Part shown: one piece after another, positions 2,352 to 63,589 of the stretch | How positions within the stretch are numbered: position 1 is the first letter of the stretch | Layout of the letters: each line of letters opens with the position of its first letter | NCBI GenBank assembly: GCA_964016885.1 | Contig: OZ024742.1 | Span: 307,706,001 to 307,770,000, forward strand | Reading direction: 5' to 3' | Length of the DNA: 64,000 nucleotides | DNA from: Eledone cirrhosa | Lineage: Eukaryota | Position numbers and translations under genes: made by a program | The notes under the pieces: generated by a model | The model's database searches: none | What the model saw: only the letters and a program-made list of their open reading frames with translations | Told to the model about the DNA's origin: nothing

Positions 2352-2352
<1 letters not shown>

Positions 2353-3197
2353 TTAACCCATCAGTGGTTGGCATCCTCTGGACTGAAATCGGAGACTGAA
2401 GGACTGATTATATCAGCACAAGATCAGTGTCTGCCAACAAAAAATTACCAAGCCAACATAATAAAAAATGGAAGCAGCCCATTATGCCGTGTATGCAAAA
2501 AACAACCAGAGACCATTGACCATATAATTTCAATGTGCAGTCCTATAGCTCCAACCGAATACCTAAACAGGCATGACAGAGCTGCACAATACATACATTG
2601 GATAATGTGTAAGCATTTTGACCTGCCCCATCAAAAGAATTGGTGGGAGCATCAACCACCTCCCATACTTGAAAAAGATCACATCTCAATCTTGTGGAAC
2701 TTTAGCATCCAAACAGACCGAAAAATAGATGCAAATAGACCTGATATAATATTGAAGGACTTTAAAAAGAGGGTATGCCTGCTAATTGATATGTCCGTTC
2801 CAATAGACAAGAATGTATCTATAAAAACATTTGAAAAATTGAGCAAGTATAAGGACCTGGAGATAGAAATTGGAAAAATGTGGAAATTGAGAACTAAAAC
2901 AATACCAGTGGTTGTAGGCGCTCCAGGAATGATACCTAAGGGGTCTAATGATTACTTATCGCAAATCCCAGGAAACCCGCGTATAGGAGAAATACAAAAG
3001 GTAGTACTAATGGGAACTGCCCATATAGTAAGGAAGATTCTGTCAATATAAGTACATCACAAGTCTAAACACCTAAAGATGCATGTGTGAGTATGTATGT
3101 TCTTTCTTGAACATGGCGGACCTTGTTGTCTCTTGAGGTCACTGGTTGTGACTTGGTGATAACTCGTATGAACATAAAGCAAGATAAATGCAGCTGT
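2352..3197 (+). mobile_element. 5'-truncated R4/Dong-like RLE retrotransposon (family B); ORF 2368-3051 with CCHC zinc knuckle and PD-(D/E)xK endonuclease
   Basis: SSGLKSETEGLIISAQDQ, CRVC...ETIDHIISMC, RHD, ANRPDII...LIDMSVP, EKLSKYKDL. 3' UTR ends in (AAT)n and the 5' end abuts (AAT)n. Confidence 0.9.
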
Positions 3198-3221
3198 AAT
3201 AATAATAATAATAATAATAAT

Positions 3222-6852: not shown

Positions 6853-7121
6853 ACGAAGGAAATGTGGTAAGGAACCATATGGACCATAACGCACCAGAGT
6901 ACTCAATACTTAGGGTAGTAGTAGAGTGGGAAATAGGTAAAAGTATGACCCCGACGGCAGAGCTCAAGCCGTTTCGAAGGCTATTTCTGAAATACCCTTC
7001 GAAACGGCTTGAGCTCTGCCGTCGGGGTCATACTTGTTCCTATTACCCACTCTACTACCCTAAGTATTGAGTACTTTGGTGCGTTATGGTCCATCTGGTT
7101 CCTTACCACATTTCCTTCGTT
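6851..7121. mobile_element. Palindromic short element, family A (head-to-head arms, hammerhead 3' half at centre) in (TA)n
   Basis: 6851-6990 is the near-perfect reverse complement of 6990-7121. The sense arm begins CGAAACGGC-ttgagctct-GCCGTC-GGGG and ends ...CATTTCCTTCGTT(AT)n. Other copies at 12455-12640, 14224-14405, 34337-34415, 35863-36055 and 40527-40570. Confidence 0.8.
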
Positions 7122-12414: not shown

Positions 12415-12454
<40 letters not shown>

Positions 12455-12457
<3 letters not shown>

Positions 12458-12640
12458 AAGACGTTTTTTAACCCCGACGGCAGAGCTCAAGCCGTTTCGA
12501 TGGCTATTTCTGGACGTCGAAACGGCTTGAGCTCTGCCGTCGGGGTTAAACATCTTCCTATTAGCCAGTCTACTACCCTAAGTATTGAGTACCCTGGTGC
12601 GTTATGGTCCATCTGATTCCTTACCACACTTCCTTCGTTA
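12455..12640. mobile_element. Family A palindromic element (short left arm, long right arm)
   Basis: CCCCGACGGCAGAGCTCAAGCCGTTTCGA...TCGAAACGGCTTGAGCTCTGCCGTCGGGG; flanked by (TA)n. Confidence 0.8.
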
Positions 12641-13844: not shown

Positions 13845-13929
<85 letters not shown>

Positions 13930-13959
13930 TATATATATCAATCACATATATTTTTATTT

Positions 13960-14146
13960 TTGACCCGAATTACTTGGTCGTTTTTATGGCTGTGCGGATG
14001 ATTGTTTAACCATCATCTCAGTGTGTTTGGCCTTTAACGTTTGTTGTAGCTCTGGTTCATCTGAATCATTGAGCGCTTGCCACACATCTCGGAAGTTGTT
14101 TTTCGTTAATTCCTAAGCCGAAATGCGATTCTCGCTAATTTATATT

Positions 14147-14224
<78 letters not shown>

Positions 14225-14403
14225 ACGAAGGAAATGTGGTAAGGAACCAGGTGGACCATAACGCACCAAAGTACTCAATACTTAGGGTAGTAGAGTGGGT
14301 AATAGGAGGAGCTAGATAACGAAGGAAATGTGGTAAGGAACCAGGTGGACCATAACGCACCAAAGTACTCAATACTTAGGGTAGTAGAGTGGGTAATCCT
14401 TCT

Positions 14404-14448
<45 letters not shown>

Positions 14449-14640
14449 TTAACGAGAATCGCATTTCGGCGAGTAGAAATTAGCGAAACGCAACATCCGT
14501 ATTGTGCAGACAAGCGCTCCATGGATATGAAGATACCAGAGCTATAAACATAAGTTAAAATGGTCATATACACTGAGACGATGGTTAAGAAGTCATTAAC
14601 CATCTTAGCCAAAAAAGCGAACAAGCTAAACGGGTCAAAC
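13960..14640. repeat. Diverged inverted pair (13960-14145 / 14445-14640) bracketing two tandem minus-strand family A fragments
   Basis: GCCGAAATGCGATTCTCG vs CGAGAATCGCATTTCGGC; TAGCTCTGGT vs ACCAGAGCTA; related to the 19606/20221 repeat. Confidence 0.6.
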
Positions 14641-14843
14641 AAAATAAGATATATATATATATATCCAAAAATTAAATTATGGGTTGTCATGTCTGAGAGA
14701 CATGCGACATATCTACTGCAGAATAAGCTCAAATATTCCAATATCAACTAGAAATAGAATGACATATATATATATAAATTAACATATATATATATTTTAT
14801 ATATATATATGTCAATCTATTTCTAGTTGATATATATATATAC

Positions 14844-18367: not shown

Positions 18368-18410
<43 letters not shown>

Positions 18411-18521
18411 TGTTATTAATTCTGGCAATATTACACAAATATGACCCTCCCCAAGTATAACAATATTTGTTTCGACACACGATTTCATATAAAAAACCTC
18501 GCTAAACTAATTCATCGCCGC

Positions 18522-35862: not shown

Positions 35863-36055
35863 TGACAAAGAGGGTGTGGTGAGATACCAGGTGGACCATA
35901 ACGCACCAATACTTAGGGTAGTAGATAGGGTAATAGGAAAAGAGTCAGGACCCCGACGGCTGAGCTCCGGCCGTTTCGACAACTAGATCCGAACTGTTCG
36001 GATCTAGCTGTCGAAACAGCCGAAGCTCAGCCGTCGGCGTCGTGAATCTTTTCCT
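35863..36055. mobile_element. Family A-related palindromic element
   Basis: CCGACGGCTGAGCTCCGGCCGTTTCGACAACTAGATCCGAAC / GTTCGGATCTAGCTGTCGAAACAGCCGAAGCTCAGCCGTCGG. The left arm shares GGTGGACCATAACGCACC and ATACTTAGGGTAGTAGA with family A. Confidence 0.75.
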
Positions 36056-37289
36056 ACACACACACACAGACACAGACACACACACACGCGCATATATATA
36101 TATGAATTTATTTCTATATAGAATATAATGTACCCTCTATACTACTAATAAATTAGGTAGCGTATTTAAGTGTTGTTGTTTTCATTTCGTTTTGGAAAAC
36201 CATTCTTAATTTTAATTAGTGAACCCGAGATAGTTGCTCAAGGTGTCATGTAGCTAAACTGAACCAAGAACCAGATCTCTCTAACCACACTATATTGCTT
36301 CCGCTTAAACTTTTTAAAACGTATTAAAAAAGTCTCTTAAAGAGTTGTGCAGGCTTGAATAGAATTATACAGGGAGATTCAGTGTAATTTAGAGTATGAC
36401 AAGGCGGACCGTTTAAATTATAAGTACAACACATTTTTGCCAGGTGATTGAACTGGATGGAGCACCGTGAAATAAACTGTTTGATCACAAGGCGCCGCTT
36501 GGTAGTGACTTCTCAACCATACTGTAGTGAACGGAACACAACTAACCACTAAGTCACGCGCATTCACAGTATCTGTTCTATCAAAGTGACTAGTAAATAT
36601 AATGATTTCTAGGACTCACACAATATCACTAATGTTTTCAGGAAGGACTATTGTCGTATAAATCAGCTGCCATACTTGAATAAAACATATGTCTCTAATT
36701 TGGAATTATTACAGTAAATTCGACTTCGGCGCGAATTGAATTCAGTACCTGCATTTTGACCAATACTTTATCGATAGTTTTATCCTCATCATTACACTAG
36801 CAATATTAATTATTGAAAAGAATGTTTCTAGAAGAACAGCTTTTTAAAAACTAAACTGTTCTCCTGGTAACATTTCCAGAGGATATGTACATTGTCCTTT
36901 TCAATCTAGAAAGAATAAATAATAATAAAATCCTGATATATTAAATCATGATTCAGAAATATTTACAAAGCTACATTCTCTGATATTACATTGGTACTAA
37001 TATCGATATTTATATTACTTTCAGTAATGAAGAACATGCTGATCACACTCCCTCCGGCTCAATACTAACAGAAATCCATTATGACAATCTATAAGAAACT
37101 CATTTATTTATAAAGCAATAGCTTTAAATTCCATATAGATTAAGAAATATATGAATAATCTCTGTCGAGATGTAATTCACATTTGAAGTGAAACAACAAA
37201 ACTAGAATACGAAAAATATTTGCATTGTTATTACTAAGTTACCCAACTGCTGCTACATTGATTTTTACGATATAGAAAGGCCAAGTTTA

Positions 37290-38245: not shown

Positions 38246-40997
38246 ATATTTCTATGGACTGGCATAACTCGAAAATATCCCTTTGGTATTTAATTATGTT
38301 CGTTTTTATTTAGGTCAAATCTAAGCAACAATGAGTTTTACTTTCTCCTTGTCAAAGACAGTGAGACATTTTAATATTATAAGAAATACTGGACCCTCTT
38401 TAATTGACTATTCTTTTTCAATGTTGTGGTCTTTTGTCATTGAAAGAAAGAGAAAACAATCCATCATGATACACCTGAAACGCTGCAGAACGCTGTTACA
38501 TAATCTCAGTAAATAAACTCGGTAACTTCCCTTTTAACGGATTCGTAAAAAAAAATGACCTAAGTTATATATTCTTTTTTAAGGAATATAAAATAAATAA
38601 ATACGAATATGAGGTATCAACTGTTTAAATCTAACATAATGATATTGGGGAGCTAAGTGAATTGAAGCATTTTTCACACCCACATTGAAACAGTGTAACA
38701 GCTTTAAATCACCATAAATGTTTTCTTGCTCAATTGGTGTTCGTTATGTTATGTAATGCCTATTTGCCTTTTAATCAATTCAAAATATATAATAACATAT
38801 ATTTTAAACTGGAAGTTTGAAGGCTATATCAATCCAATCAGAAGATTAAATTCACATAAGAACACGAAGAAAGATATTGAATTATTTAATGAGCTTGATA
38901 TTTCAAAATATTCTTTCGTGAATATTAGATATGTTTGTCATTGTCCTTCTTTATATTTAATCTTCCGACTGCATTACTATAGCTAACACACATATGTCAT
39001 ATTCGAAAACACTTACAGCAAATTACAACGCTCTTCCATTATATTTATTACTGACTAAATGCCTCTCAGTATTTTTATGTCCCCTAAAGTCCTTTAATTG
39101 CTCCAACTTTGGACATTGTTTTTAATTCTTATGAGATGGATAAAGGAAATATTAGTTAAATACTAGATTCCAAGTAAGAGATCTCATCAACACATTCACA
39201 ATTTTTGCGAAAAGAAGCTTTTTCTGCTCTAGCGTCCATGTTACTTCAGTAAAAGATCCGATGGTTCGTTTTTGCTAAAATATTGCTCTAAGATAGGAAG
39301 CCTATCACTATTATTCATGTCACAAAATACCTGCTTCTCGTCCGGAGAAGACCGGTAGTAAGAGTTTAAACGCTGACAGAATCTGAACGCAGAGGGACAG
39401 ATATAACAAGGCGCTTCGTTTAAACAGATTCTGCAAATTATCCGCTCTATACTGTCTATTTATTTATTGAATATATTGTCTTCAGAGCACAGACACCTGG
39501 CAATACCTCAGCAAGGTATGCTGTCTGGCTATCGAGCGACTCTATTAATTGACGATCGGGTTAGAAACTCCAATGGAAGACTCAGTAGAGTGAAACAAAT
39601 TTTCTTGTAATATTGAGAAACATTGCGTTAAGACTTTCATTCAAATGGTACTGGGATTAATTTGAGGCACGATAAATACGGACACGTTAATTAGGGGTAC
39701 TGTTTCAATCCCATGATCCATACATCTAGATAATTGGTTTTGTTCCTATGTTAAAGATGATTACTCCCATTAAGTGAGTAATGGTGGATACCAGAATTAG
39801 CAGGTCTTTGGGGAAAATTTTATTAATTGTTTTTCTATATCTTTTAGTTTCTGAGATAAAATCCCATTGGAAATAACACCGTTTCTCATCCATAGATGAT
39901 TGATGAAATAAGACCAAATCAATCACTTAGTTTAATATAATCGGCTTCTCAACCTCACACAAAAATATTCTGAGAGTTTAGAAATCCTTTATTAGTTTGT
40001 GGCACAAGATATGATAACATATACGTTTTCGCCAAACAATCCATATACTTAAAAAATAAAGGCCAGCTTATGATAGTCCTCTATAGATAGCTGAAACAGC
40101 AATTCTGAAAATAGTATAATAGAAATAAGTTTCAATGTTTGTAAACCATTTATCTCCAAAAATACGATTCTCATAGCATGCAACATTTAATCAAATATCT
40201 TTTATAAAAATAAAAAAAAAAAAAATGTTTATTTTTGTTTTTAGCTATTGTAACATGATATGTCAGAATGTACTCCAAATAGAAACTTTTGCTTATAATA
40301 CAAGATATTTGTTTGGCGTCACGGTAGGGTTCATACCTCACTCTATACCCACTCTGCATCTGTCCATTACGCTTTTTAATTTATGATGTTGTGGCTAGTT
40401 AACACCGGTCACCGGGATAACAGAGATCGAGCGGTCATATAATCAAATTGCATCGACAACAAACATATAAGTACCTTTTCAATTTTCTGGTATTTATATA
40501 TATATATATATATATGAAAATGTTTGAGCCCGACGCTCAAGCCGTTTCGACGGCTATTTCTGGGTCCATCCGAAACGTTAAGACCCTCTTCCTGCTATTC
40601 CAAGCGTTAACCTAATATATTCCTTCCATATACTGTACCGGTTGTGTTGTTACTTCTGTTTATCTTTTACGCATACACACGCACACGCACGCACGCACGC
40701 ATACACACAGCACACACACACATATATATGTATATATTGTCATACTTGGGGAGGGTCATATTGTTATAATATTGCCAGAAATAATAACAGAACACACTCA
40801 CTGTTTGGTTTGGGTTGGTTTTTGCTTCTGTATCTTTTATATCTTCATAGTTAATTTATTTGGCAACCGATGCTTAAAAATACAGATATAAATATATATA
40901 TGTGAGTGTGTTCTGTTATTATTTCTGGCAATATTATAACAATATCACCCTCTCCAAGTATAACAATATTTGTTTCGACACACGATTTCATATCTTT

Positions 40998-44768: not shown

Positions 44769-47700
44769 TTGAGAGTTGGCTGTTTGAACGCGCGTGGCCT
44801 GAGCTCAGCTTGGAAGCAAGCAAAGCTTCTAAGTGACCTCAGGTCAGAAAGTATAGATGTGATGGTTGTTTGCGAGAGTCGGATCAGCAGCGTGAGACAG
44901 CTGGCGCCCGCCTTCGATGACTTTGAGATGCACGCATCTCTCTGTCAACCCGGAGGCGGGGGGGGGGGGGGAGTTGCCGTACTGCTGGATAAACGTCTGA
45001 CTCTCGACGTACAGATTGTTCACTCGGACCCGGGGGGTCGATTACTGGTGCTGGACGTCGGAGGTGGTGAAGGCGGGGCTTTCAGACTGGTCGGTCTTTA
45101 TGCTCCCTTCGGGGCGGAAAGAGCCGACTTCTTCCAACGTCTGGAGACTTTTCTAGGAACGTCGCGTTCCCTGCTTTTAGTGGGGGACTGGAATGGAATC
45201 CTAGATGCGCGTTGGGACTATGCAGGGGCATGTCCCGATAGAGGGGGGTGTAGCAGCCTCAAGGGGTTACTCGATCGATTCGACCTGGTCGATAGATTTC
45301 GACTAGATTGTCCAACTGCGCCAACCTGGACCTGGGCAAACCGCAGTGGACAATCTAGATCGTACCTAGATAGGTTTTTGGTTAGGAGTAAGGATAGGGA
45401 CGTATTTAGTTGTCCAGAACTGATCATGGTTGGCTATTCAGATCACAAATTAGTGACCTGCGTGGTCAACCTTGATAGAACGCATAGACAGGGTCCCGGT
45501 TACTGGAAGATGAACTTGTCCTTACCGACAAAGAAAGATTACAGAAACCGGATTAGTAGCTTAGTTAAGATGCGGTTGACGGGAGCGATCGTCAACAGTA
45601 GGTGGTGGATATCTCTAAAGAGAGAGATTAGAGTAAGTTCGATAGGTTACAGTAAGGAACTAGCGGCGAATAGAAATAGGAGGGAAAGGGAGTTAACAGA
45701 TAAACTAGAAGAGGCGATTAGGAGCGGAGACGTAGCCAGAGTGTTAGCGACGAGAACGGCATTGAGCCAGTTCTTTGACGCGAAGCACGAAGGCTGCGTT
45801 GTCCGAAGTAAAATACGTGCTTTAGGAAACGAGGGGACCAAAGCTGTTAGCTGGGCCCGCGTGACAGAAGCCAAGAGTGGGATTAAATCCACCATTCGGT
45901 CTTTGCGAGACCAGGATGGACGGGTGATCCTTGAACCTGAGCGAATGTGCGAGACCTTTCAAAGGCACTTTGCTCGACTGTTCGGAGGTGGCGGGGGGCC
46001 GGATGGGGATGTGGACTTCGGTCCATACCTCGACGGTCTACCGCGTCTTTCGAGCGGCGAAGCGGAGTGCTGCGAAGGGCCAATCACAGCCACTGAAATC
46101 GGGGAAGCGCTCAGCCAATGCAGCAGACGCAAATCCCCGGGTCTCGATGGTCTACCATACGAACTTTATTTAGCTATGCCGGTCTTGTTCTCCGAACTCC
46201 TCGAGGCTGTCTATTGCAACTGGCAACAGAACGGGAGAATTCCCTGTTCTGTGACCAAGGGCGTGGTCACGCTAGTGAGGAAGGACGAGAGCAAGGGGGA
46301 CGACTTAAGTAACTTTAGGCCCATAACTCTGCTGAATGCAGAGTTACAGATTTTGGCCAAGGTGTTGGCGAAGAGGTTGGCGCTTGTGGTGGGTGGTTTG
46401 GTGGGAGACGCGCAGACATGCGCTATCCCGTCCAGGTCCATTCACGACAACCTCCACCTCATGCGATACATCATAGAGAGGGTTGGCTACGAACCCGGCT
46501 TTAGTGGGGCCCTGATCAACTTGGATCAATCTAAGGCGTTCGATAGGGTCGACCATGGTTACCTGGATGCGGTGCTAGCGGCGGCGGGCTTCGGACCCGT
46601 TTTCAGGGGCTGGATTTCTGCCATGCACAGTGGCAACATCTACTCTAGGATTAAAGTAAACGGCTACCTCTCGGAGCCGTTTCAAATCACCCGATCCATC
46701 AGACAGGGGTGCCCCCTCTCCTCCCTTCTGTACGTATTGACTCTCGAGCCACTGCCGCGGAAGTTGGAGTTGCTGCGGGGCATACCCCTGGAACCGGGAT
46801 TGCACAAAGCGGTCTCGGCCTATGCCGACGACGTAACAGTAATGGTGGCGGACGCCTCGGAAATCGGGGCGATCGCCACCCTACTGGAGGAATACGAAAG
46901 GCTGACGGGGGCTAAGCTGAACCAGGACAAGTCAGTCGGTTTGCAACTCGGAACGTGGAGGGGCAAACCGATGCCGTTAGACGGTGTCGTCGGGCGGTGG
47001 ACGGAGGGCCCGGTGAAGCTGCTCGGGGTCTGGTTCGGACCGGACCTCCAGGTGGAGAAGAATTGGGGCGAGGTGACGAGCAGGGTGTTTGCGCTGACCC
47101 AGAAGTGGGCCAAGTGCAAACTATCACTGAAAGGTCGGGCGGAGGTGACGAACGCTTACATAGCGTCCGTCATCTACTACCGCCTGACCGTCGTGCCTTG
47201 CCCCAAGGAAAAGCTCACCATCATGGAACGCATGCTCTTCCAGTTCCTCTGGAAGAAGCGGCCTCCCATGGTGAGGAGATCCATCTGCTGCCAGCACCCT
47301 TCGAAAGGAGGGCTGGGTATGCCGTGGCTGTTGATGCGTAGGCACGCATTGAGGCTACGGCATCTACAGGTATTCCTCAACGGTCAGCCGGTGTGGGCCC
47401 CGTTTGTGAGGCGAGCCTTCCCACAGCTCGTCTCGCTCACCGAACTGCAATCCTGGGTGAAGCAAAGACCGAGAAAACTGGGCAACTGGCACACTGAGTG
47501 TGCCCAGGCGCTCACGGCTATCTGGCAAGCGGACCCGACTGTCAGTGGAGAATCCACCTCGACATTCTATAGAGGGTTGGTGGCTAGCAGGGGCGACGAC
47601 ACCCTTGGAGAGTCGCTAGGCATGGAGGAGGACGAACTGGCCAGCCTGTTCGGTAGAACTTTCGGCCCGGGACCCATGGACAACTTCCAGAGGTCCCTAG

Positions 47701-48203
47701 CCTGGCAGTGTTACCGGGGGGCTCTGCCCGTTCGAGAAAAGCTCTACAGACACGGGCGCCCGGGCAGGGATCCCGCGAAAAAGATCTGTCCCAGATGCGT
47801 GCGCGACGAGGAAACCGTTGCGCATGCACTGGTACACTGCCCGGGCGTTGCCGATCTGTGGGGCTACGTCGAACGACTGCTGTCGCGTGTGGCGCCGATT
47901 CGATTAACCGCCGAGTCTGTGGTGAACATCAAGCCGCCTCCTCCCTTCAGAAATGAAGCAGAGGCGGTCTTTCTGTGCGTAATAGCCATGATGAAAGAGG
48001 TTGTGTGGTGGACGCGCCTGAAAGGTCTGAGGTCGGGTGACTTTCTCTCCGGCCATCACCTGGTTTACTTCTTCCGATACCACTTCGGAAGAAGAATCAG
48101 GATGGAGAGAGAAGTGCTTGGTCCCAGACAGTTTTATGAAAGGTGGGTGAAAGAAGCGAGAATGGCCCGTGTAAATGGGCCTTCTCTCTACATTGTTCTG
48201 TAG
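44769..48203 (+). CDS. LINE ORF2p: APE endonuclease, reverse transcriptase and C-terminal zinc-binding motif (1144 aa, uninterrupted)
   Basis: EN: CLNARG, VCES, GDWN, SYLDRF, SDH. RT: KSPGLDG, NFRPITLLN, LDQSKAFDRVDH, RQGCPLS, YADD, KLLGV. Zn: CPRC...ETVAHALVHC. Starts at TTG, so the start is uncertain. Confidence 0.95.
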   Translation: MRVGCLNARGLSSAWKQAKLLSDLRSESIDVMVVCESRISSVRQLAPAFDDFEMHASLCQPGGGGGGGVAVLLDKRLTLDVQIVHSDPGGRLLVLDVGGGEGGAFRLVGLYAPFGAERADFFQRLETFLGTSRSLLLVGDWNGILDARWDYAGACPDRGGCSSLKGLLDRFDLVDRFRLDCPTAPTWTWANRSGQSRSYLDRFLVRSKDRDVFSCPELIMVGYSDHKLVTCVVNLDRTHRQGPGYWKMNLSLPTKKDYRNRISSLVKMRLTGAIVNSRWWISLKREIRVSSIGYSKELAANRNRRERELTDKLEEAIRSGDVARVLATRTALSQFFDAKHEGCVVRSKIRALGNEGTKAVSWARVTEAKSGIKSTIRSLRDQDGRVILEPERMCETFQRHFARLFGGGGGPDGDVDFGPYLDGLPRLSSGEAECCEGPITATEIGEALSQCSRRKSPGLDGLPYELYLAMPVLFSELLEAVYCNWQQNGRIPCSVTKGVVTLVRKDESKGDDLSNFRPITLLNAELQILAKVLAKRLALVVGGLVGDAQTCAIPSRSIHDNLHLMRYIIERVGYEPGFSGALINLDQSKAFDRVDHGYLDAVLAAAGFGPVFRGWISAMHSGNIYSRIKVNGYLSEPFQITRSIRQGCPLSSLLYVLTLEPLPRKLELLRGIPLEPGLHKAVSAYADDVTVMVADASEIGAIATLLEEYERLTGAKLNQDKSVGLQLGTWRGKPMPLDGVVGRWTEGPVKLLGVWFGPDLQVEKNWGEVTSRVFALTQKWAKCKLSLKGRAEVTNAYIASVIYYRLTVVPCPKEKLTIMERMLFQFLWKKRPPMVRRSICCQHPSKGGLGMPWLLMRRHALRLRHLQVFLNGQPVWAPFVRRAFPQLVSLTELQSWVKQRPRKLGNWHTECAQALTAIWQADPTVSGESTSTFYRGLVASRGDDTLGESLGMEEDELASLFGRTFGPGPMDNFQRSLAWQCYRGALPVREKLYRHGRPGRDPAKKICPRCVRDEETVAHALVHCPGVADLWGYVERLLSRVAPIRLTAESVVNIKPPPPFRNEAEAVFLCVIAMMKEVVWWTRLKGLRSGDFLSGHHLVYFFRYHFGRRIRMEREVLGPRQFYERWVKEARMARVNGPSLYIVL

Positions 48204-48444
48204 GTGAAGAAGTGAAGAGGAAAGGGGGAGCGCCTCCTCTCTGGGCTTCCCCCACGAAAAGAGTTGCACACTTTTCGGGGGTATGTGCAATCCCCAACAC
48301 GCCCCCTCCCTTTTGAGGACTTTTTATTGTTATATTATTATTGTTATTCCTTTTTCTTTACTCGATTTATGTAAACTCCCCCACTGTGTAAATGTCCCCT
48401 TCTTTTGTGCCCTCGTGGCAAATAAATAGAAATTTATCTATCTA

Positions 48445-49018
48445 GTAGAACGACTATTGTCGCGGGTGATACGAATCCAGTTGACCACCGAGACCATTGT
48501 CATAATCAAACCGCCACCCTCCTTCAAAAACGACGGAGAGGCGGTTTTCCTTTGTGTGATAGCTATGGCGAAAGATGTTGTATGGTGGACAAGGTTAAAA
48601 GGGCTGAGGTCAGACACCTTTCTCTCCGACCAACAACTGATTCTTTCTTTCAAATACCACTTTGGAAGAAGAATCAGGATGGAGAGAGAGGTGCTGTACC
48701 CCAGCAAGTTTTATGAAAGGTGGGTGAAAGTGGCGAGAATGGCCCGAGTGAATGGGCCTTCTCTCTATATCAGCCTGTAGGTTGAGGAAAAGGAGGAAGA
48801 GAGGAAAGAGGTAAAAGCTCTTCGTACTCCTGGAGATGAGGGTTGCACATTTTTTTTGGGGGGGGATGTTACCCATATGAAATGTCTCCCCTATTGGGGA
48901 AAATCGATTGACTTTTAAATTACATTTGTGATAATATTTTACACGTTTTTATTGTATGTAAACTTCCCCCTTTGTATTTATCCCCTTCTTTTGTGCCCCT
49001 GTGGCTAATAAAGAAACA
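48445..49018 (+). mobile_element. Tx1 copy 2, 5'-truncated (3' UTR type b)
   Basis: ORF 48457-48780 matches the ORF2 C-terminus; AATAAAGAAAC then (TCTA)n. Confidence 0.92.
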
Positions 49019-49043
49019 TATCTATCTATCTATCTATCTATCT

Positions 49044-50018
49044 ACTGAGTGTGCCCAGGCGCTCACCGCCCTCTGGCAGGCGGATCCGGTTATCAGTGGA
49101 GACTCCACCGCAACATTCTATAGAGGGCTGGTACGCAGCAGGTGCGACGACGCCCTCGGAGAAGCCCTAGACATGGAGGAGGACGAACTGGCCAGCCTGT
49201 TCGGTAGGACATTCAGCCCGGGACCTATGGACAACTTCCAGAAGTCCCTGGCCTGGCAGTGCTACCGAGGGGCTTTACCCGTTCGAGAAAGGCTCTACAG
49301 ACACGGGCGCCCGGGTAGGGACCCCGCCAAAAAGATCTGTCCCAGATGCGTGTGCGACGAGGAAACCGTTGCACACGCATTAGTACACTGCTCGGGCGTA
49401 GCCGATCTGTGGGGCTATGTCGAACAACTGCTGTCAAGGGTGGGACCGATCCGGTTGACCACCGAGTCTATTGTAATGATCAAGCCGCCTCCCCCCTTCA
49501 AAGATGAAGCAGAGGCGGTGTTTCTGTGCGTAATAGCCATGGCGAAAGAGGTTGTATGGTGGACGCGTCTGAAAGGACTGAGGTCGGGCACCTTTCTCTC
49601 TGGCCAACAACTGGTCCGTTTCTTCCGATATCATTTCGGAAGAAGGATCAGGATGGAGAGAGAGGTGCTGCACCCCAGCCGTTTCTATGAAAGATGGGTG
49701 AAAGTGGCGAGAATGGCCCGTGTGAATGGGCCTTCACTCTACATCAGACTATAGGTGAGGAAGATGAAAGACCAAGGGAGCACCCCTTCTCTGTGCTCCT
49801 GAGGAGAAAGGTTGCACACTTTTTTCGGGGGTGTGTGCGACCCCACAAGGCGCCTCCTCTCTATTGAGGATTTTGTTAAAAATTTTATTTTTTGTTATAT
49901 CTTATTTTATTTTTATATTTTGTTATTGCCTTCTCCTTATTGAGGACGCCTTTTTGTGTAAACTCCCCCCTTTGTACTTGTCCCACTTTTGATGCCCTAG
50001 TGGCAAATAAAAGAAATA
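49044..50018 (+). mobile_element. Tx1 copy 3, 5'-truncated
   Basis: Open frame TECAQAL...NGPSLYIRL to 49754; 3' UTR; (TCTA)n on both sides. Confidence 0.92.
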
Positions 50019-50064
<46 letters not shown>

Positions 50065-50065
<1 letters not shown>

Positions 50066-50194
50066 TGTTATTTTATTTTATATATAGTTTATTGTTATAT
50101 ATTAATGTTAAAGTTGCATGATTTTTATGTAAAACCCCCGCCGTCATGTCTTGTAGTGTCCCATTTTTGTACGCCCGTGACAAATAAAGAAAGA

Positions 50195-50195
<1 letters not shown>
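50065..50195 (+). mobile_element. Tx1 copy 4, 3' UTR only
   Basis: TATGTAAAACCCCC...GTCCCATTTTTGTACGCCCGTGACAAATAAAGAAAG parallels the other 3' ends; flanked by (TCTA)n. Confidence 0.75.
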
Positions 50196-50269
<74 letters not shown>

Positions 50270-50285
50270 ATATCTATCTATCTAT

Positions 50286-52767
50286 AAGACCGAAAAGGAA
50301 CTGGTAGATAAAGTAGAAGAGGCACTTAGGAGTGGCAACGTAGGCAGCGTGCTAGCGACAAGAACGGCCTTGGACCAGTTCTTCGACAACGAGGCGAAGT
50401 TCTGCGAAAGGCCGATTTCGGCCGCTGAAATAGGGGACGCGCTGAGCCAATGCGGCAAACGCAAATCTCCAGGTCTCGACGGTCTACCCTACACATTTTA
50501 CGTAGCAATGCCGGACTTGTTGTCCGGTCTCCTGGAAGTGGTCTACTGCAACTGGCAGCAGACCGGGAGAATTCCCAGTTCTGTCACCAGGGGCGTAGTC
50601 ACACTAGTCAGGAAGGACGAGAATAAGGGGGATGACATAGGCAACTTCCGGCCCATAACTCTGCTAAACAGAGAGTTACAGATTTTGGCCAAGGTGTTGG
50701 CAAAGAGGCTGGCGCTTGTCGTCGAAAACCTGGTGGGAGAAGCGCAGACATGCTCAATCCCGACCAGGTCCATACACGACAACCTCCACCACATGCGATA
50801 CATCATAGAGAGAATAGGGTGTAAACCTGGCTTCGGTGGGGCCCTGATCAACTTGGATCAGTCTAAGGCTTTCGATAGGGTTCACCATCGTTACCTGGAT
50901 GCGGTGCTCCAGGCGGCAGGCTTCGGACCCGTGTTCAGGGGCTGGATTGTTGCAATGAACAACAGCAACATCTGCTCAAGAGTCAAGGTGAACAGCTACC
51001 TCTCAGAGCCGTTCCATATCACGCGATCCATTCGACAGGGATGCTCTCTCTTCCCCCTTCTGTACGTGCTGACTCTCGATCCACTACTGAGGCAGTTGGA
51101 GCTATTGCAGGGCATCCCTCTGGAACCGGGACTGCGGAAAGCAGCGTCAGTCTACGCCGACGACGTCACAGTAATGGTGTCGAGCACCTCGCAAATCGAG
51201 GAAGTTGGCACCTTACTGAAGGAATACGAAAGTTTCACAGGAGCGAAGCTGAACCGGGACAAGTCCATCGGTTTGCAACTCGGATCGTGGAGAGGCAAAC
51301 CGATGCCTTCCGATGGCGTCGTCGGGCGCTGGACGGAAGGACCGGTAAAGCTGCTCGGGGTCTGGTTTGGTCGGGACCTCCAGGTGGAGAAGAACTGAAA
51401 CGAGGTGACGGCCAAGGTGTTTGCACTCACCCAGAAGTGGGCTGATTGAAAACTATCCTTGAAAGGTCGAGCGGAGGTGGCGAACACTTTTATAGCGTCC
51501 GTCATCTACTACCGCTTGACCATCGTGCCTTGTCCAGCCAAAACGCTCACCAAAATGGAGCGCGCGCTCTTCCAATTCCTTTGGAAGAGCGGGCTCCTTT
51601 GGTGAGAAGATCCCTCTGCTGCCAACACCCTTCAAACAGAGGGCTGGGGATGCCGTGGCTGACGATGCGCAAACACGCGCTCAGGCTGCGGCACCTCCAC
51701 GTACTCCTCACCAGACAACCGGTGTGGGCTCCGTTCGCGAGGCGAGCATTTCCACGACTAGTCTCGCTGACCGAGCTGCAGTCCTGGGTCAAGCAAAGAC
51801 CGAGGAAAATGGGCGACTGGCACATCGAATGTGCTCAGGGGCTCACAACCCTCTGGCAGGTGGACCCGCGCGATCAGTGGAGACTCTTTTTCGTCATTCT
51901 ATAGAGGGTTGGTCCGCAGCAAATGCAACGACGCGCTCGGAGAAACTCTGGGTGTAGAGGAAGAGGAACTGAGCAGTCTGTTCGGTAGAACCTTCGGCCC
52001 GTGACCGATGGACAACTTCCAAAAGTCCCTGGCCTAGCAGTGCTACCGGGGAGCTCTACCAGTTCGAGACAAGCTCTACAGACACGGGCTCCCGGGCAGG
52101 GACCCTTCGAACAAGATCTGTCCGAGATGCGAGCGTGATGAAGAAACCGTCGCGCACGCATTCGTACACTTCCCTGGCGTTACCGACCTGTGGGACTATG
52201 TAGAACGACTATTGTCGCGGGTGGGACCAATCCGGTTGACCACCGAGACCAATGTCATAATCAAACCGCCACCCTCCTTCAAAAACGAAGGAGAGGCGGT
52301 TTTCCTTTGTGTGATAGCTATGGCGAAAGAGGTTGTATGGTGGACAAGGTTAAAAGGTCAGACAACTTTCTCTCCGACCAACAACTGATTCTTTCTTTCA
52401 AATACCACTTTGGAAGAAGAATCAGGATGGAGAGAGAGGTGCTGTACACCAGCAAGTTTTATGAAGGGTGGGTGAAAGTGTCGAGAATGGCCTGAGTGAA
52501 TGGGCCTTCTCTCTATATCAGCCTGTACGTTGAGGAAAAGGAGGAAGAGAGGAAAGGGGTACAAACTCTTCGTACTCCTGGAGATGAGGGTTGCACATTT
52601 TTTTCGGAGGTATGTGTTACCCATATGAAATGTCTCCCCCTATTGGAGAAAATCGATTAACTTTTAAATTACATTTGTGATAATATTTTACACGTATTTA
52701 TTGTATGTAAACTTCCCCCTTTGTATTTATCCCCTTCTTTTGTGCCCCTAGGCTAATAAAGAAACAT
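50286..52767 (+). mobile_element. Tx1 copy 5, 5'-truncated, internally deleted and degraded (3' UTR type b)
   Basis: RT motifs in 50349-51398; jump FFD to EAKFCE removes about 90 codons; stops and frameshifts downstream; 3' UTR nearly identical to copy 2. Confidence 0.92.
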
Positions 52768-53087
52768 ATCTATCTATATATACATATATCTATTGATCGT
52801 ATTTTATATCTATCTAATATATATTTCTCATTCTCATTCCTCTTGCACTTGTTCGTATTCCCCGCATTCGTTCTGTTTTGTTATTTTTATTTAATTCTTC
52901 TTTGGGTAATCCACCAGTGCAGCTGTCAGTTTTCATCATAACGAAGGTGCATATTCGACAATGGACTCAAGCATGTACAGACTTAGTTTGTCATTTAGTA
53001 TAGAACTTCAGTCACATCCAGCTTATGCATTATGATGCAAATGGCGAGGTTGATGGAAATAATGCAGATTATCTAATGGACGAGGTG

Positions 53088-53259
53088 GATTATGATAAGG
53101 ATGATGGTGATGATGATGGCGAAAGTGACGATGATGATGGTGATGGTGATGATCATGGTCATGAGGACTATGACGACGACGACACTACTATTTAAGAAAA
53201 CCATGTGGATGGTGAATATGATGATGATGATGGTGATGATAATGTTTATTATTATTATT
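53088..53259. repeat. Degenerate (GAT)n followed by (TTA)n
   Basis: Directly visible. Confidence 0.85.
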
Positions 53260-54245
53260 TGTTTTCATTTATCTTGCTTTATGTTCATACCAGTTATCAC
53301 CAAGTCACAACCAGTGACTTCAAGTGACAACAAGGTCCGCCATGTTAAAAAGAAACACGCACACACACACATGTATCTTTAGTTGTTTACACTTTTGAAG
53401 TACTTATATTGACAGAATCTTCCTTAGTATATGGGCAGTTCCCATTAGTACTATCTTTTGTATTTCTTCTATACGCGGGTTTCCAGGGATTTGCGATAAG
53501 TAATCATTAGACCCCTTAGGTATCATTCCTAGAGAGCCTACAACCACTGGTATTGTTTTAGTTCTCAACTTTCACATTTTTCCAATCTCTATTTCCAGGT
53601 CTTTATACTTGCTCAATTTTTCAAATGTTTTTATAGATACATTCTTGTCTTTTGGAACGGACATATCAATTAGCAAGCATACCCTCTTTTTAAAGTTCTT
53701 CAGTATTATATCAGGTCTATTTGCATTTATTTTTCGGTCTGTTTGGACGTTAAAGTTCAACAAAATTGAGATGTTACCTTTTTCAAGTACGGGGGTGGTT
53801 GATGGGGCATGTCAAAATGCTTACACATTACCCAATGTATATATTGTGCAGATCTGTCGTGCCCGTTTAGGTATTCGGTTAGAACTATAGGACTGCACAT
53901 TGAAATTATATAATCAATGGTCTCTGGTTGTTTTTTGCATACACGGCATAATGGGTTGCATCCATTTTTTATGTTGTTGGCTTGATAATTTTTTGTTGGC
54001 AGACACTGATCTTGTGCTCCATCAGTCCTCCAGTCCATCAGTTCTCCAGTCTCCGGTTTCAGTCCAGAGGATGCCAACCACTGATGGGGTAAAGTTTTGT
54101 CAACATCAGGATTGTTAGCTCTTTCTGGGTATTTTCCATACAGAGGCTTTTCTTGCCATTTCCTAGCCAGCTTCTGAAGCAGTTCTTTCTGTGCAGTTAC
54201 TTTTACATCCTTTTGTAATCCAAATCTCGGGTTGCTCTTTATCTC
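53260..54245 (-). mobile_element. Second copy of R4/Dong-like family B
   Basis: SSGLKPETG...AQDQCLPTKNYQAN, CRVC, ANRPDII, EKLSKYKDL; 3' UTR matches 3052-3197 and ends in (AAT)n on the minus strand. Confidence 0.9.
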
Positions 54246-56098: not shown

Positions 56099-56195
<97 letters not shown>

Positions 56196-56274
56196 TAACA
56201 GAAATAACAATACAATCGGTACAGTACATGGAAGGGATATATTAGGTTAACGGTTGATATCGCAGGAGGAAGGT

Positions 56275-56308
56275 CTTAACGTTTCGGACGTTAGTCCTTC
56301 ATCAGAAG
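56275..56308 (-). ncRNA. Minimal type I hammerhead ribozyme (family H, in a short element ending in (CA)n)
   Basis: Minus strand: CUU-CUGAUGA-A-GGACuaacGUCC-GAAAC-GUU-AAG. Degenerate plus-strand copy at 57380-57413; 3' half at 40569-40665; matching CUGAUGAAGGA at 6536 and 6667. Confidence 0.75.
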
Positions 56309-61893: not shown

Positions 61894-63589
61894 TATATAT
61901 ATATATACTTCCAATGAAGATCATGCTTCCAATGAAAACGCACTCACATTTGAATTACACTTCATTTCATATAATTTTTCGTCGGTAAGTTTAATAACCG
62001 CATGTTTGTTTTGTTGTTAATTGTTAACTCTCTTTCGTCACACATTCTGTGACCTCTTCAGTGACTACTTTTGTTATTTTATAGATACAAGATGTTGTAT
62101 AACAGAACAAAGAGGAGACACAAATTAACAAAAAGGGACAAAATGTAATATAATGTATACTTCGTTTTTGTATTTATTTTGCAAAATTGCTTATCTGAAA
62201 ACGTGTATTGAAATAGATATTGTTATACTTTGGGAGGGTCATGCTGCCAATAAAAACACATGCACCTGTTGTTTTTCACTTCAATTTATTATAATTTCCA
62301 GTCGGTTAGTTTAATAACCGGTTGGTTGTTTATTTGCTTATTGTCAAAGCACTTTCGTCACATATTCTGTGACCTCCTCAGTGACTAATCTCTTATTGTG
62401 TGTCTCTCCTTTTTCTCTGTCCTACACCATATTGCCTATGATGTATGTTTCCATGTTTTTGTGTGTGTACGCAATAGATTCTGCATAACACAATATTTGA
62501 GAAGAGCCTCAGTTAAATATTTTATTTTTAAAATAATTAATTTTTTCTTGAAGAATCTGATGCTGAGACCTATTATGTAGGAGTTTGACAGCCAAATTTA
62601 CTTGACAATATCTACATTAAGAATCTAAATATTTGCTAGTTATTCTGATACTTGTTTTTTCTTTTACCTGCTAATACGATGCATGTGATGTAAGATTTGT
62701 GTGCTTGATGTTTAACTACAACCAATTCCTCGGTTTTCAGAAATCTTTAGAATTATATGTTTTGCTGAGTAATACAAAGAAGAGATAATGCTAGAATCTT
62801 ATGAGATAAGAACAACTAATTGACAATGACAACACACTTGTAATGTTACGTAAAAATCGATTATTAAACCACCAATGATACTTGTGACATATATCCGCTT
62901 CTAGAAATATGCTCTTCGATTGTTGGGCAATCTTGAATTCATGACTATACAAATACTATCGCAAATATAATCTGTATCTGCTTTCTGTTTGAAATATTAA
63001 TGCTACAACTATTTCTGTTCCATTAAACGTGTAAGCTTTGTATCACTTGATAAACAACCCTATGAACCTCAGTCGGTTTCGTCGACGAATCTTCTAGCTT
63101 CTTGATCAACAGAATGTCTTGCTCATGAAATTATCGTGCAAGCGCTGAAATTTCCAAAGGCACGTGTGCCGGAAGAGTGCTAAGGTTCGTTTTGCCCTTA
63201 GTCACGTGGGAAGGGCCATGATCTATTTTGTAAGATCTGTGATTGATGGGAAGGAGAGACTGAGGTACGTTGCAACCGAAAGGACACTAAACATAACCCA
63301 GAAATCAATAATATTATATATATTAATATAAATATTACTTATATAAATAACTTGAAACCTATTATATTTCGTTGAAGGTTCGTACCAGAAGCTATACCTA
63401 AAATGTCTGCAGCTGATATTGACCCCATTTCAAGCTAAACAAAATGATGTTATCTATTAAGATATTTACTTTAAAATCCCTTTAAATGTAAAATATTTTC
63501 GATAGCCAGATTAATTCTAAAGATTTTCTTTCTTATTCGTGATCCTTTTCGTGACATAATAGACTGATGCAAAGGAGAGAAATGGGAGA

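What the first reader, a model, noticed from the sequence alone, without database searches (positions are those of the whole stretch)
40527..40665. Two different ribozyme families fused head-to-head at their hammerheads
Minus strand 40527-40570 is family A (GAUGG-acccagaaauag-CCGUC-GAAACGGC, revealing its stem II). Plus strand from about 40569 is family H (CCGAAACGTTAAGACC... matching the reverse complement of 56190-56285) and runs toward a CA-rich tail. Both are truncated at stem II. A heterologous head-to-head fusion cannot arise by fold-back of one molecule. Inference: two RNAs were copied from opposite ends of one break and joined, which would also explain the homologous palindromes.
Basis: partly seen in the sequence, partly recalled or inferred. 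Interest (0 to 1): 0.72.

Follow-up and report, generated by a model that had tools for sequence, protein, structure and literature searches.

The report
Two Penelope retrotransposon stumps fused head-to-head
Short end-pieces of two unrelated Penelope-like jumping genes are joined head-to-head, but the join still carries five bases of a lost mirror copy of the first one, so the second element likely replaced that copy in a separate step rather than two RNAs being pasted into one DNA break together.

Summary
The junction is in the assembly: family A (minus, 40514-40563), GTCCA, then family H (plus, to 40670). Both are hammerhead-bearing ends of Penelope-like elements (PLEs) of different clades by motif (A Hydra-like, H Neptune-like). 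This exact junction is unique, but the class recurs: 4 of 133 head-to-head joins in 1.43 Mb mix families. Best reading (0.62): an A/A palindrome came first and lost its right arm from the centre, during or after a neighbouring H insertion. Co-insertion of two RNAs stays possible (0.22). No short-read contig bridging the join was listed (inconclusive). Earlier scan notes described the homologous palindromes elsewhere in this genome; none I saw described mixed-family fusions.

The parts
40495..40515 (.). (TA)n target tract at the outer end of the A arm
   Evidence: sequence
40514..40563 (-). Family A PLE stub: 3' strand of hammerhead stem II, GAAAC, stem III, predicted cleavage site and the short terminus. 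One substitution (40528) and a 6-nt deletion in stem III (after 40535) against the A1-CAAAC subfamily
   Evidence: short/long termini
40564..40568 (+). GTCCA: first five bases of an A plus-strand arm; with the preceding TTTCTGG it is identical to the centre of intact A/A palindromes L043 and L119
40567..40568 (+). CA, the possible microhomology: shared with H copies of the GCAT type; absent if the donor was of the GCGT type
   Evidence: 6 nt upstream of CCGAAAC were TAGCGT in 16 and TAGCAT in 11 of 44 other H blocks
40569..40670 (+). Family H PLE stub, 5'-truncated at hammerhead stem II, ending at the usual H terminus; 3 differences from the family majority in 93 nt
40671..40737 (.). Mixed (CA)n/(TA)n tract at the outer end of H
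   Evidence: sequence
40734..40993 (.). Head-to-head palindrome of a third repeat family in the same microsatellite, showing repeated use of this site
   Evidence: 40734-40969 self-inverted; 40880-40993 matches 18377-18490

Best explanation
The locus holds an A stub, five bases of a second A arm and an H stub in one piece, and it likely arose in two steps: an ordinary A/A palindrome was inserted first and likely lost its right arm from the centre, the free end being joined to a separately primed H copy. Step 1 (inferred): the A enzyme cut (TA)n and copied the front of its RNA onto both ends, giving a short left arm and a long right arm joined at GGGTCC. Step 2 (inferred): either H inserted into the microsatellite on the right, its cDNA stalled at stem II, and the resected left end folded into a hairpin, was opened near the tip and was joined to the cDNA by CA (about 0.40); or H was already there and a later break at the palindrome centre deleted the A arm up to H (about 0.22).
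For: GGGTCCA equals an intact A/A centre and cannot be templated by the minus arm, which continues GGAC(T). Chance of 3-5 matching bases is 0.016-0.001. Of 7 loci with this centre not followed by G, 3 resume in A's own tail. Among 55 A arms reaching the head in the unselected set, 4 resume in A's own tail and 2 run into microsatellite. L216 shows an A centre joined by a 5-base overlap into the tail of a neighbouring complete palindrome, and L105 a tail-to-tail fusion with both primed ends lost; neither can be a co-insertion. In 5 of 10 mixed fusions one partner keeps its own palindrome centre plus a 5-46 nt stub, and in 0 of 10 are both partners at their natural head, judged by eye. The A arm has the short terminus, and 96 of 109 A/A pairs are one short plus one long. 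H is mostly solo; 4 of 19 other H copies begin within 11 nt of stem II. A and H carry endonucleases of different clade type. Precedent: microhomology 5' joins and deletions in PLEs (PMC3846280, passages); asymmetric centre deletions of palindromes (PMC8701086, passages).
Against: Polarity: 10 mixed fusions keep two outward-facing primed tails and only 2 have lost one, although tail-to-tail neighbours are the commonest (28 of 37 mixed neighbour pairs across a microsatellite in the unselected set). This argues against plain random deletion and fits co-insertion as well as integration-coupled loss. A-short plus H-long is also the pattern one twin-primed event would give. The arms are of similar age (1 substitution plus one deletion in about 50 nt; 3 in 93 nt), so no order is shown. 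Short A ends also occur unpaired (8 solo stubs against 39 paired). The overlap is only 2 bases and depends on the H variant. No ancestral allele was available.
Confidence: 0.62

Rival explanations
1. Co-insertion: an A particle primed the left end and an H particle the right end of one break; the H cDNA stalled at stem II, jumped by CA onto the 5' end of the A RNA, copied three bases and was joined like an A/A centre.
For: Outward-tail polarity 10 to 2; short plus long termini here; similar ages; PAc cuts and extends both strands in vitro (PMC11167929, parts 1-2); nine L1-made insertions from two transcripts, those in opposite orientation ascribed to joining of separately extended ends (PMC11702581, section 7).
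Against: Needs an extra template jump in 5 of 10 cases. 0 of 10 have both natural heads. L065 is short plus short and L227 long plus long. Sister subfamilies hardly mix. The partners belong to different clade types. No cross-mobilisation was seen between the two PLE types of Adineta (PMC3846280, passage).
Confidence: 0.22
2. No second A arm ever existed: a solo A and a solo H were inserted one after the other at the edge of the same (TA)n, and the bases between are filler that matches A by chance or by repair templating.
For: Solo short A stubs exist. L212 and L227 look like this, with TA-like overlaps and no stub.
Against: The filler equals the A head in 3-5 of 3-5 bases and no TA remains at the join.
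Confidence: 0.09
3. Assembly error joining two repeat copies.
For: No listed short-read contig bridges 40563-40569, and depth is 0 over 40518-40532 in all four runs laid.
Against: The tool filters contigs and drops rare variants, so a hole is no finding. The left flank is matched with 0 differences over 584 nt. Both arms have private changes, and the same architecture occurs at unrelated loci.
Confidence: 0.04

Closest known systems
EN+ PLE insertions with an inverted 5'-truncated copy and tail (PMC8557442 passages and section 11; PMC3846280 passages)
   Same: Head-to-head arrangement, (TA)n targets, hammerhead in the pseudo-LTR, one arm with and one without the tail.
   Different: Here the two arms are of different families and clade types; the passages I read describe only same-family pairs.
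PAc internal initiation at two sites (Frangieh et al. 2024, PMC11167929, parts 1-2 of 4 read)
   Same: Two fixed termini per family (96 of 109 A/A pairs short plus long); both strands cut and extended.
   Different: In vitro with one RNA species; it does not test whether the two ends use one RNA or two. The A tail is about 85 nt against the 30-40 nt usually cited.
L1-made insertions from two transcripts in opposite orientation (PMC11702581, passages and section 7)
   Same: Two different cDNAs facing each other, joined with microhomology or filler.
   Different: Those are single de novo events in cultured cells; here a stub of a third cDNA arm remains and no single event is shown.
Asymmetric centre deletions of palindromes (reviewed in PMC8701086, passages)
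   Same: One arm lost from near the centre.
   Different: Shown for kilobase transgene palindromes; these arms are 55-140 nt.

Membership tests
Penelope-like element (family A) | RT followed by C-terminal GIY-YIG endonuclease upstream of the hammerhead repeat | tested here: met
   Broken ORFs in L124-L132 with YRDD RT and VIY...YIG motifs read by eye; ORF end runs into the hammerhead in L128. Pfam gave no hit for 5 A-linked pieces; Atlas features 0.96-0.98, 9 of 30 hits in clusters with GIY-YIG on 23% of members.
Penelope-like element (family H) | GIY-YIG endonuclease upstream of the hammerhead repeat | tested here: met
   L317 frame with IYA-CxxC-YIG and two His; L316 carries the same C-terminus continuous with the H hammerhead.
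Penelope-like element (family H) | RT domain in the same ORF | not tested
   Fetched H loci did not reach the RT core.
Hydra clade (family A) | CxCX5C linker and no CCHH in the endonuclease | tested here: met
   CNCPDISTC in L128, no CxxC between the GIY and YIG equivalents; definition from PMC8557442 section 11.
Hydra clade (family A) | RWK and DKT motifs; RT phylogeny | not tested
   No N-terminus fetched, no tree built.
Neptune clade (family H) | CX2-5CxxC linker plus CCHH, C-terminal endonuclease | tested here: met
   CSRPRCSSC across two frames and CSLC...H...H in L317; motif definitions from PMC8557442 passages.
Neptune clade (family H) | RT phylogeny | not tested
   No RT sequence in hand.
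PLE type I hammerhead | Core, extra base after A9 or U3-A8 variant, palindromic stem/loop III | tested here: met
   H: CTGATGA-A, AACGTT; A: TTGARAA core, GAGCTC loop; variants described in PMC4209133 (passages). Rfam found no hammerhead in the window and MFE folds did not recover the fold.
PLE type I hammerhead | Self-cleavage | not testable with these tools
   The fused copy lacks both CUGA cores and cannot be a ribozyme.
Single two-RNA insertion event | One target-site duplication around the whole composite | tested here: inconclusive
   Both ends lie in microsatellite.
Single two-RNA insertion event | No remnant of a third cDNA at the join | tested here: not met
   GTCCA stub.
Non-LTR retrozyme | Tandem units each with a complete hammerhead | tested here: not met
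   Two truncated single stubs; definition from bioRxiv 10.64898/2026.07.22.740005, part 1 of 5.

The most novel reading that the evidence does not exclude
About 3% of head-to-head PLE insertions in this genome (roughly 2,000-21,000 loci) record two particles of different PLE clades working on the two ends of one break, with the reverse transcriptase jumping from one family's RNA onto the 5' end of the other's, while normal palindromes come from one RNA or one source locus.
Probability: 0.2. Interest if true: 0.7.

Novelty: new variant of a known kind. Interest (0 to 1): 0.33.

Why it matters
How PLEs build their inverted ends is open (PMC8557442, PMC11167929). Mixed-family fusions could have shown that each end takes its own RNA. 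The counts point the other way: about 8,000 A palindromes almost never mix sister subfamilies, which favours one RNA or one source locus per insertion, with the caveats of different activity periods and arm-to-arm conversion. The fusions most likely measure how often a PLE insertion or repair event destroys a neighbouring palindrome. If the co-insertion reading held, it would be the first sign of cross-clade PLE cooperation at one break.

Tried and rejected
Rfam scan: only microsatellite-driven miRNA matches, no hammerhead. My first core scan missed A and H because of the extra base and the U3-A8 core. H/H pairs centred at stem II: 0 hits. A/H joins deeper in A: 0 hits. A head followed by another GAAACG[ACT] hammerhead: 343 matches, 100 listed, 47 inspected (30 fetched automatically, 17 picked), none a recognisable second family. 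Searches were discarded: faulty masking, and a SINE in the library that made false mixed pairs. One search was superseded after two families had to be split from A. The subfamily classifier had an offset and classified only 45 of 109 pairs (43 concordant); I rely on the edit distances and. The L125 row was given on the wrong strand and is ignored. Read support: three contig sets from one sample and two reduced-representation runs gave no bridging piece; inconclusive. Dating the two arms did not separate them. L079, L214 and L158 (head of one family at the intact tail of another) were left out of the fusion count. Paper searches found no report of mixed-family head-to-head PLE fusions; the library is incomplete and no supplements were read.

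Full report
What is there. The plus strand reads (TA)n, family A antisense (40514-40563), GTCCA (40564-40568), family H sense (40569-40670), then mixed (CA)n/(TA)n and a third family's palindrome.

What A and H are. Long A copies lead upstream into broken frames with a YRDD reverse transcriptase and a C-terminal endonuclease with CxCX5C and no CCHH, the Hydra pattern of PMC8557442 section 11. Long H copies lead into an endonuclease with CX4CxxC and CCHH, the Neptune pattern. Pfam did not detect the A domains, so these calls rest on motifs read by eye and on the Atlas search. Both families carry type I hammerheads of the PLE kind (PMC4209133, passages): H with an extra base after the core and an AACGTT palindrome, A with a U3-A8 or C3-A8 core, a long loop II and a GAGCTC loop.

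The join. The minus A arm would continue TTTCTGGACT. It reads TTTCTGG-GTCCA instead, which is letter for letter the centre of intact A/A palindromes such as L043 and L119; 1 of the first 50 of 3,141 A1/A1 centres listed has this form. So five bases of a second A arm are present. H starts after them, sharing CA if the donor was of the GCAT type (11 of 44 other H blocks had TAGCAT, 16 TAGCGT).

How common. The exact A/H pattern has one hit, itself; two other patterns had none. I annotated 143 stretches of 10 kb (140 evenly spaced, 3 beside the window; 1.43 Mb) with a library of 38 repeat families taken from palindrome arms; most of these families were not checked for a PLE frame. Direct head-to-head joins: 129 same-family, 4 mixed (L065, L212, L227, L270), or 3.0% (95% interval 0.8-7.5%), against 90% if partners were drawn at random. 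Loci fetched for other reasons added L049, L171 and three cases with a palindrome centre, a 24-46 nt stub and then a foreign tail (L017, which also ends in H; L106; L152). Families missing from the library are not counted.

One RNA or two for normal palindromes. A1/A1 centres number 3,141 and A2/A2 4,757. Centres with A1 on one side and any other base at the diagnostic site number 160; 67 of the 100 listed have the A2 base, so about 107 (counted by hand). Random pairing predicts about 3,839. Of 21 such loci fetched, 19 are same-subfamily pairs with one point change, 1 cannot be told (L141) and 1 is a candidate hybrid in a rearranged cluster (L142). In 109 of 124 A/A pairs with a readable variable segment, 88 have arms within one edit, against 19.1 after shuffling (only 26 of the 124 come from the unselected set). 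Arm-to-arm mismatches overlap between A1 and A2 (means 1.79 and 1.25 per 27 nt; 14 and 12 pairs). Independent choice of RNA from a common pool is therefore unlikely. Not excluded: two RNAs from one source locus, separate activity periods, or later conversion between arms. This test does not exclude a rare co-insertion.

How this locus most likely formed. Loss of one arm from the centre is common. Of 7 loci with this centre not followed by G, 3 resume in A's own tail, 1 is a point mutant, 1 has an insert, 1 runs into other DNA and 1 is this locus. Among 55 head-reaching A arms in the unselected set, 36 have an intact partner, 9 continue upstream, 4 resume in A's own tail, 2 run into microsatellite, 2 meet another family head-on (L227 and this locus), 1 meets a neighbour's tail (L216) and 1 other DNA. 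L216 and L105 have lost primed ends and so are rearrangements between separate insertions. H copies often begin at stem II by themselves (4 of 19), which explains the H break without a special role for the ribozyme. I infer an A/A palindrome first, then loss of its long right arm, more likely coupled to H integration than by a later deletion, because 10 of 12 fusions keep two outward tails. Hairpin opening near the tip is inferred from the centre-deletion literature (PMC8701086, passages) and was not tested.

Against this reading. The same polarity, the short-plus-long ends and the equal ages fit co-insertion, and L1 offers a precedent (PMC11702581, section 7). That reading needs an extra jump onto the A RNA and two particles of different clades at one break; I give it 0.22. 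Reads did not settle the join: flanks are present at single-copy depth but no bridging contig was listed.

Verdict. A real, recurrent and apparently unreported variant of the known PLE inverted structure, most likely made by ordinary end-joining between successive insertions. Interest 0.33.

Noticed in passing
L125, L127, L128, L130, L160, L195, L266 (family A hammerhead): Family A has a U3-A8 core in some subfamilies and C3-A8 (a predicted mismatch) in others, with a loop II of about 35 nt and a fully paired stem III.
   Followed up: partly
window 6933-7043, 12453-12561, 35934-36056: Three A/A palindromes of different subfamilies; each has matching arms.
   Followed up: partly
window 14138-14437 inside 13929-14664: Tandem A tail fragments nested in the centre of an older inverted repeat.
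   Followed up: no
window 61921-62387: Two canonical CTGA.GA hammerheads on the minus strand, 320 nt apart, from the family that also forms the palindrome at 40734-40993.
   Followed up: no
L002 1504-1851 (-), L019: Head-to-tail H pairs in which the second copy starts at stem II right after the first copy's end.
   Followed up: no
L040 2123-2269: Family G palindrome whose one arm runs through a short inverted insert into a second family; a possible further composite, not counted.
   Followed up: no
A/A centres; L087, L106, L121: Many centres carry short templated inserts copied from the arms, as polymerase-theta joining would leave (recalled, not tested).
   Followed up: no
many families: Short termini often end in TAT, ATAT or TATAT, so the second priming may use TA microhomology with the target.
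   Followed up: no
window 46058-52826: GC-rich block of internal direct repeats (2.4 kb at 79%; units of about 0.6-1 kb).
   Followed up: no
window 2352-3211 and 53246-54093: Two 860-nt copies of one repeat in opposite orientation, 88% alike.
   Followed up: no
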